A DNA stretch of 64,000 nucleotides from Methanobacteriota archaeon (GTDB lineage Archaea; Thermoplasmatota; Poseidoniia; Poseidoniales; Thalassarchaeaceae), in NCBI GenBank assembly GCA_016845365.1, contig JAERST010000024.1:160461-224460 (forward strand). The letters run 5' to 3'. Under the pieces are notes generated by a model. The model was not told where the DNA came from, made no database searches, and was given only the letters and a program-made list of their open reading frames with translations. Position 1 is the stretch's first letter. Each line of letters starts with the position of its first letter. Both the position numbers and the translations under genes were made by a program. Positions 27,592-35,892 of this stretch are shown here, piece by piece.

Positions 27592-28575
27592 TCAAACTCG
27601 GCCACGGGTTGTTCCAAGTCGGCGGCGCTTGCCCTTCTGTTGCCTGCGACTCTGGCCGGCACTCTCTTCGGAACCTGTGCCGCCTAGCGTCAATGAACCG
27701 CTCTTGAGCAGAGTCTCTTCGAGGGAGCCAGCCAATTCTTCATTCTCAGAAGCAGGCCTCAGAGCCTCTCGGACAGATTCGTTATGGTCGCGGATAGTTC
27801 GCTCGCGCTCCTCGCGAGCGGCCTTAAGAGAATCTCGAATCTCATTCACTTGGTCGAGAAGCCCCTTCATCTCCGTGTGGACTTCATCAGCAGATTTGCG
27901 GGCTTCGATGAATGCGTTGTGAAGTCTATCGCCCTCGGCACGAAGGAAATCTCGTTCCTCGAACATCGGTTTGATTTCTTCCCAAACCTCGTCGGCCTCT
28001 TTGTGGCAGTCAATCATGGCTTGATGTTCGCTGTCAGCCTCGGCTTTCAATCGAGTAATGGATTCGTCCATATCGCCCAAATCGATGGTGATCATCTGGT
28101 GTTCTTTGACTGCTGGAAGCAATTCGTTGCGCTTTCCGATGAGTTTTTTGAGTTCTTTGAGAAGCTTGTTTTCGTCCTCGAGTTTGAGTCTTCCGTCGGT
28201 CTCGAGTCTTCGCTCGATTCGCTCGATCTGTTCCTCGGTTTCGGACAATTCGATGACTACTGACTTTGCTCCTCGCTCGTCATCCCTGCGTCCGCGCTTT
28301 TTGGCGATGAGTTCGCGGATATGAGATTGGATTTCGTCTCGACGAGCCTTGTGGACTCGAGCGCGGTCGCGGATTTCCTTCTGGCGCTCTTTTGCCTCGT
28401 CGATCGATTCGCGCAGGCCTTTGGCTTGGTCCTGGACCGCGTTGCGCGAATCGGCAGCCCTACGAGCATTCTCATTGTGGCCGTTTCGCTGCTCGCGCAT
28501 GCGTCGCAGCTTGGTCTCCATCGCATGCAGACGACTCCTCAAGTCGTCGTCTGGATTGGTGAGCTCTTCGGACAC
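27592..28575 (-). CDS. COG1340-like archaeal coiled-coil protein with basic Gly/Arg/Lys C-terminal tail (paralog 1 of 4)
   Basis: Almost entirely heptad-like charged coiled coil (EAKERQKEIRDRARVHKARRDEIQSHIRELIAKKR) ending in QKGKRRRLGTTRGRV. Confidence 0.6.
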   Translation of the reverse strand: MSEELTNPDDDLRSRLHAMETKLRRMREQRNGHNENARRAADSRNAVQDQAKGLRESIDEAKERQKEIRDRARVHKARRDEIQSHIRELIAKKRGRRDDERGAKSVVIELSETEEQIERIERRLETDGRLKLEDENKLLKELKKLIGKRNELLPAVKEHQMITIDLGDMDESITRLKAEADSEHQAMIDCHKEADEVWEEIKPMFEERDFLRAEGDRLHNAFIEARKSADEVHTEMKGLLDQVNEIRDSLKAAREERERTIRDHNESVREALRPASENEELAGSLEETLLKSGSLTLGGTGSEESAGQSRRQQKGKRRRLGTTRGRV

Positions 28576-28684
28576 GGCCGGGCGACGAAGGTATCATTCT
28601 TGAATGGACCTGCTGATTACTCACCAATTTTGCTTGCTGATTCCTTAGCGATTTAGGCAGCCACCGTTTTCGTCCGCTGATTTC

Positions 28685-30334
28685 TCACAATCCTAAGACG
28701 GAACCGACGAATGGTAAAATCGGCGATAGAATGGCAATTATCGCTCCGACGATGAAGGCTGCGCCGGTTGTCATTCTTAATCGCGTGAATAGGTCGGCGC
28801 GAATCTGTACGGTTAGGACTCGTCCAGAAATCAGGTTTCCATCCGGGTCTTCGAGGCGAATTGTCACAGTCGATTCGCCTGTGCCAGCGGGCAATAGGCT
28901 CTGCCAAATGATTCGGGTCGATGCGAGCAGATTAGGGAGTGTTTGAGTCAATGAAGGCTGCTCGAGACCATCGAATGCAATTGCTTGGTGTGGTTCAACA
29001 CGCAATTTATACTCGCATTCGTTTGGTCGAAAATCTGGGGTTTGAACGCGCAGAATCAAGTCCTGAGCTTCTTCGGTCTGGTTCAGAATGAAAGCGAATA
29101 GGTTCGCCGGTCCGACGACGAGATTTTCCATATCAACATCGAACCAGACCGTACCACTGCGCCCCGTTTGATGGCGCATGTTGAGTCTATCGTGTAGGCG
29201 GAAAAACGGGGTGCAATCAGTCATCGCCCGCGAAAGCAATCTATCCCAGGTCTCCTCTCCTAATTCGGGATGGTCGAATAATCGGTCGATGGCGTCAGAG
29301 TCAATCATCGACGAAAGAGCGGTGCGGAATTGCTGCTCGTCGATTAGCGAGTTGCGTCGCAGATGCAGCAAGTGCAGGAGTGTCTCCTGCATCTGCGTCC
29401 GAGAATGACCTTCTTTCACCTCTGCTTCGACCGTTCGCAAATACTCAGAAATCCGCACCGCCAGCAGAGGGTCAATGTGCGCCTTAATCACATCAGAAAA
29501 CGGTCGGCGCAACAATGCCGGATGAATCGGTGGGGAGAAGGCATTCAGCATCCCCCACGGTTCATTGGCATTGAACCGGGCCTGGTTAGAGACCAGAAAT
29601 GTCCCATGCCCGGCAAGTAAAGTCCCCGTCGACAGCGCAACCAACCTAGGAGACAGGTCTCCATCCGGCGCCAAGCGCAAGGCGACGGAAAGGAAGATGA
29701 CGGCGAGAACGAGAAACGTCAGCGTCGCCGTCAATTGTCGGCGGGACCCATTAATCGTCGCTCGCATCTCAGCATATCCATGCGAGCTCTTGAACGTCAG
29801 TCCCGCCGTCGTCAACGATTCAGCCTCATGCCTGAAAATAGTGCGTGTAACGGTCAGCAGACGGAACAGGAGGAGAAGCAAGGCGATGTCCGCAACGAGT
29901 ATGAAAAGAGACAGAAAATGAATCCCCAAATGCATCTCAACAGGCGCGACGTCCTGCATATGCAGCAACCACCATTCCGGCGTCGAGTTGCGATAAGACT
30001 GAGCCAATCCGAAGTTCACAATCACGATCAAAGGCAAAAATAGCACGAAGCGAGCCCCGCCGCTAATCAGCAATCGATCGATGCGCAGCAGCGTCCTTTC
30101 CTGCATCCGAAGGCCGTCTATTGGATCACTCGGTTTTGCTCTGGAGGCGGGTTTGGCTGCGTTCGATTCACCCGAGCGAATTATTTTCTCAATGGAAGAA
30201 TCGAGGGTCGAGTCGAGAGGAGCATCATTCAGCACCTCCTCTGCTAGGGCGGAAAGTGCCTCATCGAGAGTCGATGGATCTTCATCGAAAGACGATTGAT
30301 GCGCGTCCTGCGAATTTGAATCTTCATTCAACAT
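28685..30334 (-). CDS. Hypothetical large membrane protein (acidic N-terminal cytoplasmic region, ~6 TM, large C-terminal domain, terminal TM)
   Basis: Hydropathy pattern only. Start placed at MLNEDSNS so that the overlap with the upstream dtxR-like gene is 11 nt. Confidence 0.45.
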   Translation of the reverse strand: MLNEDSNSQDAHQSSFDEDPSTLDEALSALAEEVLNDAPLDSTLDSSIEKIIRSGESNAAKPASRAKPSDPIDGLRMQERTLLRIDRLLISGGARFVLFLPLIVIVNFGLAQSYRNSTPEWWLLHMQDVAPVEMHLGIHFLSLFILVADIALLLLLFRLLTVTRTIFRHEAESLTTAGLTFKSSHGYAEMRATINGSRRQLTATLTFLVLAVIFLSVALRLAPDGDLSPRLVALSTGTLLAGHGTFLVSNQARFNANEPWGMLNAFSPPIHPALLRRPFSDVIKAHIDPLLAVRISEYLRTVEAEVKEGHSRTQMQETLLHLLHLRRNSLIDEQQFRTALSSMIDSDAIDRLFDHPELGEETWDRLLSRAMTDCTPFFRLHDRLNMRHQTGRSGTVWFDVDMENLVVGPANLFAFILNQTEEAQDLILRVQTPDFRPNECEYKLRVEPHQAIAFDGLEQPSLTQTLPNLLASTRIIWQSLLPAGTGESTVTIRLEDPDGNLISGRVLTVQIRADLFTRLRMTTGAAFIVGAIIAILSPILPFVGSVLGL

Positions 30335-34931: not shown

Positions 34932-34971
34932 GTGGAGAATATCTGCATCTTTGATTCTCCTATGCGCTTAT

Positions 34972-35892
34972 ATGGAAAACTCAGGACGAGAGGCCGCAGG
35001 AGGCGATTACATGGAAATGGAGGGTGCCGAAATTCGCGGACTTCTTCAGCCTCGTTGCGACGATATCCAGGAGCAGATTTCCTTCAATCGCGAGGAGCGC
35101 GATCAATGGAATGCCAAGGTTCGTACTCTCCTAGACGAGAGAAATGAACTCAATCGTCAAGTCAAGGAACTCATCACCGAGGTCCAAAATCAGAAGTCTC
35201 TGCGTGACGAAGCAAATCAAACGGTTCGCGATTTGAAGGACCACCGTGCGGAAAAGACCGAGGAACTCAAAGTCATCCGCACGAATTTCCGTGAGAAACT
35301 TGCTCAGCAGGGCGAGGAAGAAATCCAGCGTGAGAGAAATGACAGGAGTCGCTCTCCGGCACGAATTAAAACCGAGATGGACAAACTCGATCGCCTATAC
35401 CAACATGGTGGAGTTTCACCCAAGAAGGAACGAGAGCATATGATGAAAATGAAGCGGCTCTCACAGGAACTTCGAGAGGCAAAAGAGCGCAAATCAGATG
35501 GTGGCATTCGCGACCTCAAGATGCAATTGAGAGATGCTGAAAAGCAGCAGGAAGAAGCTCACAAGAATGTCAAGAAAGCGGTCTCCAGCGCCCAAGAAGC
35601 CCACGATTTGATGGCTGAACTCTCTGAAGAAGTCGATCGACTTCGCGAGAAAGCAAATTCAGCCCAATCTGGCGTAACCCGCGCAAAGCGCGAAGCCGAT
35701 TCGCTTCACGGACGCTACATCGTCTCGCTACGCTGCATTCACTCGATGCAAGACCTGTTGAAGGCATTGGATGCACGCGAGAAGGGTGGAGGCGATGATG
35801 ATGAGCAGGTTGAAGTCGCTGACTTGATGACTCGATTGATGTCTGGTGACACGCTTTCAACCGACGAAATCATGGCCCTTCAGCGGAATTGA
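34972..35892 (+). CDS. COG1340-like coiled-coil protein (paralog 4; acidic tail)
   Basis: ERDQWNAKVRTLLDERNELNRQVKELITEVQNQKSLRDEANQTVRDLKDHRAEKTEELK is the archetypal COG1340 repeat style. Start ambiguous (34891, 34972 or 35011). Confidence 0.5.
   Translation: MENSGREAAGGDYMEMEGAEIRGLLQPRCDDIQEQISFNREERDQWNAKVRTLLDERNELNRQVKELITEVQNQKSLRDEANQTVRDLKDHRAEKTEELKVIRTNFREKLAQQGEEEIQRERNDRSRSPARIKTEMDKLDRLYQHGGVSPKKEREHMMKMKRLSQELREAKERKSDGGIRDLKMQLRDAEKQQEEAHKNVKKAVSSAQEAHDLMAELSEEVDRLREKANSAQSGVTRAKREADSLHGRYIVSLRCIHSMQDLLKALDAREKGGGDDDEQVEVADLMTRLMSGDTLSTDEIMALQRN

What the first reader, a model, noticed from the sequence alone, without database searches (positions are those of the whole stretch)
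27592..35892. Expansion of four COG1340-like coiled-coil paralogs with basic RGG/KKG tails, clustered with a DtxR regulator, a 573-aa membrane protein and an exported Zn-ribbon protein
Seen in sequence: one minus-strand ORF (27592..28575) and three tandem plus-strand ORFs (33046..35892) are 300-330-aa proteins. They consist almost entirely of charged heptad-like coiled coil in the style typical of the uncharacterised archaeal COG1340 family (for example ERDQWNAKVRTLLDERNELNRQVKELITEV).

Three of them end in Gly/Arg/Lys-rich tails (KGKRRRLGTTRGRV; RGRGGKKGKRRLGVTRGGPRRG; KGKKSDKGSNQSNKRSKKSAKK) that look like nucleic-acid or membrane-binding tails. Adjacent stop/start overlaps suggest co-expression.

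They flank three other genes:
- a DtxR/MntR-like regulator
- a large polytopic membrane protein
- a secreted beta-rich protein with a cytoplasmic double zinc ribbon

The function of COG1340 proteins is unknown. A four-gene paralog array suggests a filament- or scaffold-forming system, possibly linked to the envelope.
Basis: partly seen in the sequence, partly recalled or inferred. Interest (0 to 1): 0.6.

Follow-up and report, generated by a model that had tools for sequence, protein, structure and literature searches.

The report
Four archaeal coiled-coil paralogs, likely RNA-linked
Four real, conserved genes in a Marine Group II archaeon are diverged copies of a coiled-coil protein family found across archaea whose function is unknown, and gene fusions in relatives suggest they bind or organise RNA rather than form a cytoskeleton.

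Summary
All four ORFs are genuine genes under purifying selection in a Poseidoniales (MGIIb) genome. Profile-profile comparison with reversed-sequence controls places all four in the COG1340/DUF7121 family.

- **cc4** (35011-35892) is the orthodox family member.
- **cc1, cc2 and cc3** are offshoots seen here only in Poseidoniales that have added basic C-terminal tails. cc1 and cc3 share a conserved R-R-L-G-[VT]-T-R-G peptide.
- **Predicted shape:** AlphaFold predicts an SMC-arm-like helical hairpin for cc4 and a similar long-helix arrangement, plus a disordered tail, for cc3.

The genes sit in a cluster conserved across the order. ZnR-DtxR-membrane protein-cc1 lies on one strand, and cc2-cc3 plus a separately promoted cc4 lie on the other. 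An invariant 17-bp palindrome sits at the cc2 promoter.

- Only cc2/cc3 overlap.
- The membrane protein is 549 aa.
- The 'exported' protein is a membrane-anchored type-I protein.

My favoured function is an RNA-binding scaffold, partly tethered to the membrane. This is inferred, not shown. It rests on fusions in relatives: the MGIIa cc3 is fused to a Cid1/TUT4/7-like RNA nucleotidyltransferase, and other family members are fused to NYN RNase, KH and SAP domains. Canonical family genes also often sit beside srp54.

The family is catalogued, but I found no functional study of it.

The parts
27592..28575 (-). cc1: 327-aa DUF7121/COG1340 paralog with the C-terminal basic tail ...KGKRRRLGTTRGRV. 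It is the last gene of the minus-strand operon.
   Evidence: ORF. Pfam DUF7121 30.6 bits against GA 29. hhalign to the family profile: 99.4%, E 1.5e-21, 285 columns. 73 sequences in the cc1 alignment (window + orthologs), with the tail motif conserved. dN/dS 0.04.
28685..30334 (-). It has no known family. Its start overlaps the end of the DtxR gene.
   Evidence: Gene call of 549 aa. TM segments at about 88-106, 132-156, 201-219 and 525-543. No Pfam, NCBIfam, PADLOC or PDB relative. Conserved in MGIIb and MGIIa.
30324..30992 (-). DtxR/MntR-family metalloregulator with a C-terminal FeoA-like domain.
   Evidence: PF01325 3e-13, PF02742 2e-15, PF04023 4e-8. NCBIfam MntR 1.7e-26, below its curated cut-off. 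The EEMYLK and C-x-x-E-H residues are at least 90% conserved among 74 aligned sequences.
31015..32949 (-). Type-I membrane protein of 644 aa: N-terminal signal/anchor, beta-rich segment with weak CARDB/Ig-like matches (presumed outside the cell), one TM helix, and a tail with two zinc ribbons (presumed cytoplasmic).
   Evidence: Weak CARDB and Zn-ribbon Pfam hits. Hydrophobic segments at 9-27 and 468-490. Cys 525/528/544/547/610/613/630/633 are 97-99% conserved.
32950..33045 (.). Divergent promoter region between the two operons. It holds the conserved block CGTATCAAGGAAACCC (32974-32989), a palindrome and a TATA-like box.
   Evidence: Alignment of this intergenic region from the window and 41 loci; motif coordinates.
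32997..33013 (.). Perfect inverted repeat AGGTCAC-GTA-GTGACCT, a candidate operator for the co-encoded DtxR-type regulator. It abuts the TATA-like box CCTTTATTG (33011-33019), which lies about 30 nt before the cc2 ATG.
   Evidence: Unique in the 64-kb window. A match with at most 2 mismatches occurs in 67 fetched loci. In the aligned loci the arms are nearly invariant and the spacer varies G/A. MGIIa locus L087 has a different palindrome at the same position. The identity of the binding protein is inferred.
33046..33969 (+). cc2: 307-aa divergent DUF7121 paralog. It carries a K-rich tail and ends in EGGEEE, whose codons supply the Shine-Dalgarno (SD) sequence for cc3.
   Evidence: ORF. Pfam 16.7 bits with model version 1, but an unmarked DUF7121 hit in the precomputed table, which uses a newer model. 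hhalign to the family profile: 98.1%, E 1.4e-13. SD GGAGGTGAGGAGG at 33952-33964.
33966..34931 (+). cc3: 321-aa, the most divergent paralog. Its tail is ...KKGKRRLGVTRGGPRRGNSATRRE. It is translationally coupled to cc2 through an ATGA overlap.
   Evidence: ORF. No Pfam hit. hhalign to the family profile: 95.1%, E 3e-8, collinear over 238 columns; reversed control 0.2%. AF2 pLDDT 79.5, with long helices and the tail (279-321) disordered. The MGIIa orthologs are fused to a Cid1/TUTase-like nucleotidyltransferase.
34932..35010 (+). cc3-cc4 spacer with a conserved TATA-like box CTTATATG (34967-34974) and the Shine-Dalgarno sequence AGGAGG (34998-35003). cc4 therefore has its own expression signals.
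   Evidence: Sequence. C[CT]TA[AT]ATG is conserved across MGIIb loci. In L084 and MGIIa, other genes lie between cc3 and cc4.
35011..35892 (+). cc4: 293-aa orthodox COG1340/DUF7121 protein with no basic tail. It ends in the family's C-terminal motif, DLMTRLMSGDTLSTDEIMALQRN.
   Evidence: Pfam DUF7121 38.4 bits. 742 homologs, all starting at this ATG. hhalign to the family profile: 100%, E 2e-69. AF2 pLDDT 84.7: hairpin H2-110 / H165-257 plus two short C-terminal helices.

Best explanation
**What the genes are (shown).** The four genes are diverged paralogs of the COG1340/DUF7121 family, which is widespread in archaea. cc4 is the orthodox ortholog. cc1, cc2 and cc3, seen here only in Poseidoniales, were already present in the common ancestor of MGIIa and MGIIb.

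**Predicted shape.** cc4 is predicted to fold as a roughly 100-residue antiparallel helical hairpin with a small two-helix C-terminal cap. This resembles an SMC arm without a head. cc3 has a comparable set of long helices. cc1-3 then continue into a Lys/Arg/Gly-rich tail, predicted disordered in cc3. In cc1 and cc3 the tail carries a conserved R-R-L-G-[VT]-T-R-G peptide.

**Gene organisation (shown).**
- One operon encodes the Zn-ribbon membrane protein, the DtxR regulator, the polytopic membrane protein and cc1.
- The divergent operon encodes cc2 and cc3. The spacing suggests a leaderless transcript, and the two genes are translationally coupled.
- cc4 follows with its own promoter-like box and Shine-Dalgarno sequence.

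**Regulation (inferred).** An invariant 17-bp palindrome abuts the TATA-like box of cc2. It is probably the operator of the co-encoded metal-sensing DtxR-type repressor.

**Mechanism (inferred).** The proteins act as rod-shaped RNA-binding adaptors or scaffolds. The hairpins provide spacing and oligomerisation, and the basic tails hold RNA. cc1 couples the assembly to the two membrane proteins. In MGIIa the same scaffold carries an RNA 3'-tailing enzyme.
For: **Family membership and paralogy**
- hhalign against a 54-member family profile: cc4 100%, cc1 99.4%, cc2 98.1%, cc3 95.1%. All reversed-profile controls are below 1%.
- Pfam DUF7121 is above gathering for cc1 and cc4, and is listed unmarked for cc2 in the precomputed table.
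- The cc1 and cc3 tails align with each other at E 8e-6. The tail motif is found only in these two ORFs in the window.

**Reality and age of the genes**
- Gene order is identical in about 74-81 of 80 species loci.
- The block is kept in MGIIa, where the flanks are rearranged, and in the more distant locus L084.
- dN/dS is 0.04-0.12.

**Structure**
- AF2 models of cc4 and cc3.
- The best PDB matches are SMC arm fragments, and they are not significant.

**Operons**
- ATGA overlap and Shine-Dalgarno sequence for cc3.
- Conserved TATA-like box and Shine-Dalgarno sequence for cc4.
- In MGIIa locus L087, cc1 overlaps the membrane-protein gene by 4 nt.

**Operator**
- The palindrome is unique in the window. 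In the aligned loci its arms are nearly invariant and its spacer varies; matches occur in 67 loci.
- The C-x-x-E-H metal-site motif of the regulator is conserved.

**RNA link**
- In MGIIa, cc3 is the C-terminal half of a 690-710-aa protein whose N-terminus is a Cid1/TUT-like nucleotidyltransferase: PF22600 at 2.5e-31, plus PF03828 and PF19088. The G-S...D-x-D motif is intact.
- The search lists about 60 such archaeal clusters. The next best hits are eukaryotic TUT4/7.
- Other proteins strongly matched by the cc4 profile carry an N-terminal NYN RNase (5 clusters), a KH_2 domain or a SAP domain.
- Some members have long K/A/P-rich extensions.
- Canonical family genes sit directly upstream of srp54 in 26 of 60 metagenome loci, spanning 5 of 9 clusters at 65% identity. 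A TrmY-like RNA methyltransferase often follows.
Against: - No RNA-binding domain is detectable in the four window proteins themselves. The RNA inference rests entirely on fusions and neighbourhoods in relatives, plus tail composition.
- The MGIIb lineage lacks the nucleotidyltransferase in this locus and in the 64-kb window.
- SAP domains and Lys-rich tails fit DNA equally well.
- The srp54 neighbourhood comes from one broad clade and is absent from this window.
- A DtxR regulator and two membrane proteins in the cluster are not obviously connected to RNA biology.
- Binding of the DtxR protein to the palindrome is not shown, and its arm spacing differs from the classical 19-bp DtxR box (my recollection of that box).
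- The AF2 models are monomers. The oligomeric state is unknown.
Confidence: 0.4

Rival explanations
1. Envelope-linked cytoskeleton or filament scaffold. The four coiled-coil proteins co-polymerise under the membrane. They are anchored through cc1 to the polytopic membrane protein and the Zn-ribbon protein, and they shape or stabilise the cell envelope.
For: - Strong heptad periodicity.
- cc1 is co-operonic with the membrane protein, and in MGIIa translationally coupled to it.
- The block of membrane proteins plus cc genes is conserved across the order.
- Basic tails could bind anionic lipids.
Against: - AF2 predicts intramolecular hairpins about 100 residues long, not long parallel dimers of the kind seen in crescentin or intermediate filaments.
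- Family fusions are to RNA enzymes and RNA-binding domains, not to cytoskeletal or membrane modules.
- There is no Pfam or Foldseek similarity to ESCRT-III/PspA, bactofilin or intermediate-filament proteins.
- The tails are not amphipathic helices.
Confidence: 0.22
2. Nucleoid or chromatin organiser. These would be head-less SMC-arm-like rods that bridge or coat DNA through their basic tails and a SAP-like C-terminal cap.
For: - The best structural matches are SMC, Smc5/6 and MukB arms.
- Weak SMC, Rad50 and ASRP profile hits.
- SAP domains and histone-H1-like K/A/P-rich extensions occur in family members.
- The locus lies beside the RNA polymerase operon.
Against: - The structural matches are not significant and are generic for antiparallel coiled coils.
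- The TUTase, NYN and KH partners are RNA-specific.
- Proximity to the RNA polymerase genes is broken in MGIIa.
Confidence: 0.15
3. Metal-homeostasis module. The DtxR regulator controls a membrane system for metal uptake, export or sensing, formed by the polytopic protein and the Zn-ribbon protein. The coiled-coil proteins would be accessory or stress proteins of that regulon.
For: - A DtxR/MntR regulator with a conserved primary metal-site motif lies inside the operon.
- A conserved palindrome lies between the divergent operons.
Against: - The membrane protein matches no transporter family.
- The cc proteins have no metal-binding motifs.
- Canonical family members elsewhere are not next to metal genes.
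Confidence: 0.1
4. Low-complexity or spurious ORFs, or fragments of SMC or seryl-tRNA synthetase.
For: - The composition is rich in charged residues.
- Long antisense ORFs overlap the genes.
- Weak SMC arm hits.
Against: - Hundreds of full-length orthologs with invariant motifs.
- Strong purifying selection.
- Conserved gene order.
- No ATPase head or aminoacyl-tRNA synthetase core; SMC scores are far below cut-off.
Confidence: 0.01

Closest known systems
COG1340 / Pfam PF23435 (DUF7121), 'uncharacterized archaeal coiled-coil protein' (JGI label 'coiled-coil DUF342 family protein'; sometimes mislabelled K01079)
   Same: - cc4 is a full-length member of about 290 aa, with the same collinear profile and the same C-terminal motif type (G-[ED]-x-L-S-T-[ED]-[ED]-h-M-x-L-Q).
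- cc1 passes the Pfam threshold.
- cc2 and cc3 are detectable by profile-profile comparison.
   Different: - cc1-3 are lineage-specific derivatives with a degenerate cap motif and added basic tails.
- Four copies sit in one conserved cluster with a regulator and membrane proteins, whereas the other archaeal loci examined held a single copy.
- My searches found no functional study of the family and no solved structure.
Coiled-coil arms of SMC / Rad50 / MukB / Smc5-6
   Same: The predicted intramolecular antiparallel coiled coil is of similar length to an SMC arm fragment, and these fragments are the top Foldseek hits.
   Different: - There is no ATPase head and no hinge.
- The proteins are about a quarter of the size.
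- Matches have E > 0.001 and low TM-scores, and sequence scores are far below the family cut-offs.
N-terminal tRNA-binding arm of seryl-tRNA synthetase (PF02403)
   Same: It is an antiparallel helical hairpin that contacts RNA (established knowledge). One family member, P0262, gives a weak sub-threshold PF02403 hit.
   Different: - None of the four window proteins matches PF02403 at E < 0.1.
- There is no class-II catalytic domain.
- The hairpins are about twice as long.
Cid1 / TUT4 / TUT7 non-canonical poly(A)/(U) polymerases
   Same: The N-terminal half of the MGIIa cc3 ortholog has the MTPAP-like palm and PAP-associated domains. It is about 30% identical to vertebrate TUT4/7.
   Different: - The window's cc3 has no nucleotidyltransferase domain.
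- The archaeal enzyme has a DUF7121-type coiled coil with a basic tail where TUT4/7 have CCHC zinc knuckles.
Bacterial coiled-coil-rich cytoskeletal proteins (crescentin, FilP, Ccrp)
   Same: They are charged, heptad-rich proteins of similar size (my own knowledge), and the cluster here has a possible membrane association.
   Different: Those proteins form parallel dimers that polymerise. Here intramolecular hairpins are predicted. There is no sequence or profile relationship, and no polymerisation evidence.
DtxR/MntR/MDR1-type metal-dependent repressors acting at archaeal promoters
   Same: The regulator has the HTH, dimerisation and SH3-like (FeoA) architecture. A palindromic site abuts a TATA-like box, which is the classical position for archaeal repression by promoter occlusion (established knowledge).
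   Different: - The palindrome has 7-8-bp arms with a 3-bp spacer, not the classical 19-bp DtxR box.
- The putative regulon consists of coiled-coil and uncharacterised membrane proteins, not a recognised metal transporter.
- Binding has not been tested.

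Membership tests
COG1340 / Pfam DUF7121 (PF23435) | Score at or above the Pfam gathering threshold (29 bits) | tested here: inconclusive
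   cc4 scores 38.4 and cc1 scores 30.6, so both pass. cc2 scores 16.7 with model version 1, but is listed as an unmarked hit in the precomputed table, which uses a newer model. cc3 has no hit.
COG1340 / Pfam DUF7121 (PF23435) | Collinear profile-profile homology to the family, above a coiled-coil composition control | tested here: met
   hhalign against 54 full-length representatives: cc4 100% (E 2e-69), cc1 99.4% (1.5e-21), cc2 98.1% (1.4e-13), cc3 95.1% (3e-8). Reversed-profile controls give 0.2-0.6%.
COG1340 / Pfam DUF7121 (PF23435) | C-terminal motif A-x-x-I-x-x-F-K-x-G-E-K-L-S-T-E-D-L-M-x-L-Q-K-A-G-x-L | tested here: inconclusive
   cc4 has a clear variant, DLMTRLMSGDTLSTDEIMALQRN. cc3 has a recognisable one, DRASSGGSLNANELTALLDSGG. 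cc1 (LLKSGSLTLGG) and cc2 (VAEGGDSSFARK) keep only the G-G-x-(L)-S core.
COG1340 / Pfam DUF7121 (PF23435) | About 280-300 aa, all-helical hairpin architecture | tested here: met
   AF2 cc4: H2-110 and H165-257, with short helices at the turn and a two-helix cap. AF2 cc3: H14-93, H98-117, H125-183 and H196-237, plus cap helices. cc1 and cc2 were not modelled.
SMC / Rad50 family | N- and C-terminal ABC ATPase head halves (Walker A/B, signature motif) and a hinge or zinc hook | tested here: not met
   Only arm regions match, at 13-27 bits against cut-offs of 567-1087. The ORFs are complete at 293-327 aa with no head.
Seryl-tRNA synthetase arm | PF02403 match attached to a class-II catalytic core | tested here: not met
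   No PF02403 hit at E < 0.1 for any of the four, and no catalytic domain.
ESCRT-III / PspA / Vipp1 | Snf7 or PspA_IM30 profile match, or fold match to the alpha1-alpha2 hairpin plus alpha3-5 | tested here: not met
   No such Pfam hit. None appear among the top 50 Foldseek PDB matches for cc4 or cc3.
DtxR/MntR regulators (the neighbouring gene) | N-terminal HTH (PF01325), metal-binding/dimerisation domain (PF02742) and primary-site residues | tested here: met
   PF01325 3e-13, PF02742 2e-15, FeoA 4e-8. EEMYLK and C-x-x-E-H are at least 90% conserved. The ancillary site looks incomplete. Metal specificity cannot be tested here.
Cid1/TUTase nucleotidyltransferases | Pol-beta-type palm (G-S...D-x-D...D) plus the PAP-associated domain | tested here: not met
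   Absent from the window's cc3 and from the whole window. Present in the MGIIa orthologs.
Anti-phage defence systems (PADLOC) | Match to a defence-system protein model | tested here: not met
   Only weak matches (E > 1e-5) to the coiled-coil arms of JetC and LmuB. Nothing for the four non-coil neighbours scanned.

The most novel reading that the evidence does not exclude
The cluster encodes a metal-regulated, membrane-tethered RNA-handling platform built from four COG1340 paralogs. It would be an archaeal counterpart of a degradosome or RNP scaffold. In MGIIa it carries a eukaryote-like terminal uridylyl/adenylyl transferase on the cc3 subunit. If so, the widespread but uncharacterised COG1340 family is a class of rod-shaped RNA adaptors, possibly acting where ribosome or SRP meets the membrane.
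Probability: 0.15. Interest if true: 0.8.

Novelty: new variant of a known kind. Interest (0 to 1): 0.5.

Why it matters
COG1340/DUF7121 is a widely distributed archaeal protein family with no assigned function. The profile search found 771 clusters at 50% identity. Poseidoniales are described in the literature as the most abundant planktonic archaea of the surface ocean (abstract listed) and, as far as I know, remain uncultured.

This locus offers several concrete, testable handles on the family:
- a four-paralog set with conserved tail peptides;
- tight operon coupling to two membrane proteins;
- a candidate operator and regulator;
- natural fusions to RNA enzymes and RNA-binding domains, including a TUT4/7-like nucleotidyltransferase. 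In my experience that enzyme type is unusual in archaea.

If the RNA-scaffold reading is right, it would assign a role to a whole family of unknown function and reveal RNA 3'-tailing machinery in a major marine lineage. If it is wrong, the cluster is still a well-defined target for studying archaeal coiled-coil proteins.

Tried and rejected
- The first metagenome scan with a 34-member alignment failed because no stretch was conserved enough. It worked with 10 closer sequences.

**Literature**
- COG1340 returned one relevant sentence calling it a conserved archaeal group of unknown function.
- DUF7121 and PF23435 returned nothing.
- DUF342 + archaea, MGII + coiled-coil, and TUTase + Poseidoniales returned nothing relevant.

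**Searches that found nothing**
- PDB sequence searches found no relatives. The ApoE, vimentin and FrmR hits at E of about 0.005 or higher look compositional to me.
- The PADLOC defence-system idea is rejected: only arm-type noise.
- The ESCRT-III/PspA idea is rejected: no profile or fold support.
- Rfam and tRNA scans found no RNA gene in or near the cluster.

**Checks on the RNA link and neighbourhoods**
- I looked for the nucleotidyltransferase, GNAT and Roadblock-like genes of relatives in the window and in the MGIIb loci. They are absent.
- I looked for srp54, trmY, KaiC-like, double-zinc-ribbon and HTH_20 neighbours of canonical genes in the window. They are absent.
- The double-zinc-ribbon neighbour of canonical genes looked like a parallel to the Zn-ribbon protein here. 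It is confined to one lineage, so I discounted it.
- A stand-alone 429-aa nucleotidyltransferase (P0351) turned out to be a frameshift fragment of the fusion in a long-read assembly.

**Other**
- The bacterial-type promoter and terminator scan was no better than chance and is not applicable to archaea.
- Pairwise BLAST and phmmer among the four proteins is too weak to show paralogy. Profiles were needed.

Full report
**Source and observation**

The window comes from a Marine Group II archaeon (Poseidoniales, family Thalassarchaeaceae, MGIIb). The closest loci in GTDB genomes are all from that group. Neighbouring genes include archaeal RNA polymerase subunits, L30e and S3Ae.

The four ORFs exist as described:
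- cc1: 27592-28575 (-), 327 aa
- cc2: 33046-33969 (+), 307 aa
- cc3: 33966-34931 (+), 321 aa
- cc4: ends at 35892 (+)

A simple heptad test finds strong a/d hydrophobic periodicity over 34-71% of their residues. Shuffled sequences give about 5%, and neighbouring globular proteins give 0-20%. The quoted tails are present.

**Are they real genes?**

Yes.
- A family-profile scan of one genome per species returned 80 loci. Orthologs of cc1, cc2, cc3 and cc4 are present in 73-81 of the fetched loci, always in the same order and orientation.
- Mean identity of the aligned orthologs to the window residue is 55-66%, with many invariant positions.
- Against a genome that is 73-88% identical at protein level, dN/dS is 0.04 for cc1, 0.12 for cc3 and 0.05 for cc4. 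Synonymous sites are saturated in all more distant comparisons.
- The long antisense ORFs listed are, in my reading, by-products of the biased composition of these genes.

**Are they paralogs of COG1340?**

Pairwise BLAST and phmmer are too weak to decide. Pfam places cc4 (38.4 bits) and cc1 (30.6 bits) in DUF7121 above the 29-bit threshold. cc2 scores 16.7 bits with the older model, but the precomputed table, which uses a newer model, lists it as a clear hit. cc3 matches nothing.

I built ortholog profiles for each protein. I also built a family profile from 54 full-length representatives found by an exhaustive HMM search, which returned 771 clusters at E ≤ 0.001. hhalign results:

| Protein | Probability | E-value | Aligned columns |
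|---|---|---|---|
| cc4 | 100% | 2e-69 | 297 |
| cc1 | 99.4% | 1.5e-21 | 285 |
| cc2 | 98.1% | 1.4e-13 | 165 |
| cc3 | 95.1% | 3e-8 | 238, collinear |

The same comparisons against column-reversed profiles keep composition and heptad spacing but destroy homology. They give 0.2-0.6%. All four are therefore family members, and cc4 is the orthodox one.

- cc4 homologs carry JGI's COG1340 label, 'coiled-coil DUF342 family protein'.
- cc4 ends in the family's signature C-terminal motif. It reads DLMTRLMSGDTLSTDEIMALQRN here and ...FKxGEKLSTEDLMxLQKAGxL in other archaea.
- cc3 keeps a recognisable version. cc1 and cc2 keep only the G-G-x-(L)-S core.
- They are not SMC or seryl-tRNA synthetase fragments. 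The ORFs are complete, no head or catalytic domain exists, and SMC/Rad50 models score 13-27 bits against cut-offs of 567-1087.

**Tails**

The basic tails are conserved features rather than random low complexity.
- cc1 orthologs end in ...R-[KR]-L-G-T-T-R-G-[RK].
- cc3 orthologs end in ...[KR]-R-R-L-G-V-[TS]-R-G-G-P-R-[KR]-G-N-x-A-x-R-R-E.
- The two tails align with each other at E 8e-6.
- Among all six-frame ORFs of the window, the motif occurs only in these two proteins.
- cc2 has a K-rich stretch after a conserved G-G-x-S-S-F-A-R-K and ends in acidic residues.
- cc4 has no tail.
- MGIIa orthologs keep basic tails with looser motifs.

**Structure**

AlphaFold2 with an 18-sequence alignment gives cc4 a mean pLDDT of 84.7. 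Helix 2-110 and helix 165-257 run antiparallel, two short helices form the turn, and two short C-terminal helices form a cap.

cc3 (31 sequences, pLDDT 79.5) has helices 14-93, 98-117, 125-183 and 196-237, followed by three short helices and a disordered tail from residue 279.

Foldseek against PDB returns SMC, Smc5/6 and MukB arm fragments, chemoreceptors and other antiparallel coiled coils. All have E > 0.001. No relative has a solved structure.

**Gene cluster and expression signals**

On the minus strand, four genes follow one another:
- the 644-aa Zn-ribbon protein (31015-32949);
- the DtxR-type regulator (30324-30992);
- the membrane protein, which is 549 aa from ATG 30334 and overlaps the end of the regulator gene (28685-30334);
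- cc1 (27592-28575).

On the plus strand, cc2 and cc3 overlap by ATGA. The Shine-Dalgarno sequence (SD, ribosome-binding site) for cc3, GGAGGTGAGGAGG, is encoded by the terminal EGGEEE of cc2.

cc4 does not overlap cc3. All homologs start at ATG 35011. The 79-nt spacer holds a TATA-like box, CTTATATG, that is conserved across MGIIb, and an AGGAGG Shine-Dalgarno sequence.

The cluster is older than MGIIb.
- In MGIIa loci L086 and L087 the flanking genes are inverted or replaced. The block ZnR-DtxR-membrane-cc1 | cc2-cc3-...-cc4 persists, and in L087 cc1 overlaps the membrane gene by 4 nt.
- In MGIIa and in a deep-branching relative (L084), a GNAT acetyltransferase and a small protein of about 100-114 aa lie between cc3 and cc4. 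The L084 copy is weakly Roadblock-like.
- These insertions confirm that cc4 is a separable unit.

**Candidate operator**

The 96-bp divergent intergenic region contains a perfect inverted repeat, AGGTCAC-GTA-GTGACCT (32997-33013).
- It is unique in the 64-kb window.
- A match with at most 2 mismatches occurs in 67 of the fetched loci. In the aligned loci the arms are nearly invariant while the spacer and flanks vary.
- It abuts a conserved CCTTTAT box about 30 nt before the cc2 ATG. That spacing fits a leaderless transcript.
- MGIIa locus L087 has a different palindrome, CCCACCC-TATA-GGGTGGG, at the same place.
- The adjacent regulator keeps the EEMYLK and C-x-x-E-H residues of the DtxR primary metal site.

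Metal-dependent repression of cc2-cc3, and probably autoregulation, is a reasonable inference. It has not been tested.

**Functional clues**

[quoted passage not shown] The new evidence comes from fusions and neighbourhoods.

1. *Nucleotidyltransferase fusion.* In MGIIa the cc3 ortholog is the C-terminal half of a 690-710-aa protein.
   - Its N-terminus is a Cid1/TUTase-type nucleotidyltransferase (PF22600 at 2.5e-31, plus PF03828 and PF19088) with an intact G-S...D-x-D motif.
   - The search lists about 60 such archaeal clusters. The next best matches are eukaryotic TUT4/TUT7, at about 30% identity and E about 1e-41.
   - The domain is absent from this window and from the MGIIb loci.
   - An apparently stand-alone copy is a frameshift artefact.
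2. *Other fusions.* Among proteins strongly matched by the cc4 profile:
   - five clusters carry an N-terminal NYN ribonuclease domain;
   - one carries a KH_2 domain;
   - two carry a C-terminal SAP domain;
   - the two contigs examined (L168, L169) look archaeal: one holds an RFC-like and a CARDB gene, and the marine origin of the NYN clusters follows from their Tara sources;
   - others have long K/A/P-rich extensions.
3. *Neighbourhood of canonical genes.* I could analyse 60 metagenome loci of canonical family members.
   - srp54 lies directly downstream on the same strand in 26 of them, spanning 5 of 9 clusters at 65% identity.
   - A TrmY-like RNA methyltransferase follows in 15.
   - HTH_20 regulators and KaiC/GvpD-like ATPases also recur.

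None of this shows what the four window proteins do. However, independent fusions to an RNA-tailing enzyme, an RNase and RNA-binding domains are most simply explained if the DUF7121 hairpin works on or with RNA. The basic tails of cc1-3 would then be the nucleic-acid-binding element.

**Best model and rivals**

I favour, at about 0.4, rod-shaped RNA-binding scaffolds or adaptors, with cc1 coupling the set to the two membrane proteins. Rivals:
- an envelope cytoskeleton (about 0.22);
- a nucleoid organiser (about 0.15);
- an accessory part of a metal regulon (about 0.1);
- artefact or SMC/SerRS fragment (excluded).

The paralogy, the cluster conservation and the expression signals are well supported. 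The RNA role, the operator assignment and any complex formation are inferences.

**Novelty**

The family is catalogued, and cc4 is routinely labelled as a member. cc3 and its orthologs are annotated only as hypothetical or with unrelated names. I found no description of the four-paralog cluster, its tail peptides, the palindrome or the TUTase fusion. I rate it a new variant of a known, uncharacterised kind, with moderate interest. It offers testable leads on a family of unknown function, but no demonstrated function.

Noticed in passing
L085:407-2539; L086:10001-12133; L087:10001-12076 (MGIIa loci; not in the window): MGIIa Poseidoniaceae encode a 690-710-aa protein joining a Cid1/TUT4/7-like nucleotidyltransferase to the cc3 coiled coil. 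Its closest non-archaeal relatives are eukaryotic terminal uridylyltransferases (about 30% identity). This may be a eukaryote-like RNA-tailing enzyme in archaea. No paper in the searched library mentions it together with Poseidoniales.
   Followed up: partly
window 24481-25404 (-): Ribosomal protein S3Ae carries an acidic linker and a C-terminal SAP motif (...MTVAELKELLKEAGKPVSGKKADLIARLQE). The MGIIa orthologs are also flagged Ribosomal_S3Ae + SAP. This appears to be an unusual fusion for a ribosomal protein.
   Followed up: no
P0208, P0213, P0250, P0261, P0268, P0175, P0142; loci L168:1144-2781 and L169:1252-2868: Marine archaeal proteins combine an NYN (Zc3h12a/PRORP-like) RNase domain, a DUF7121 coiled coil, a KH-like GxxG segment and a SAP domain. 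They may be a further paralog class in the same or related lineages.
   Followed up: partly
L084:8336-9854; L086:12138-12981; L087:12102-12904: In MGIIa and a deep-branching relative, a GNAT acetyltransferase and a protein of about 100-114 aa lie between cc3 and cc4. The small protein is weakly Roadblock/LC7-like in L084, and L084 also has a KaiC-like ATPase there. All are missing in the window's lineage. A GNAT could plausibly acetylate the Lys-rich tails.
   Followed up: no
window 35870-36835 (-): A conserved 321-aa protein with no family match converges on cc4 and overlaps its 3' end by 23 nt. It is kept next to L30e in MGIIb and L084 but replaced in MGIIa.
   Followed up: partly
window 32974-32989: A second conserved intergenic block, CGTATCAAGGAAACCC, lies about 25-40 nt upstream of the ATG of the Zn-ribbon protein gene. 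It may be the promoter of the minus-strand operon.
   Followed up: no
L084 and L170 (long-read assemblies): Several genes in these loci (cc1, the membrane protein, DtxR, RNA polymerase subunits, the nucleotidyltransferase fusion) are split by apparent frameshifts. This looks like assembly error rather than biology. One such fragment appears in the protein database as a 'stand-alone' nucleotidyltransferase (P0351).
   Followed up: yes
window 63695-64000; 10007-10084; 46251-46326: A 5S rRNA gene and the 3' end of 23S rRNA lie at the window edge. tRNA-Pro(TGG) and tRNA-Lys(TTT) are also present. No RNA gene lies within the cluster.
   Followed up: yes
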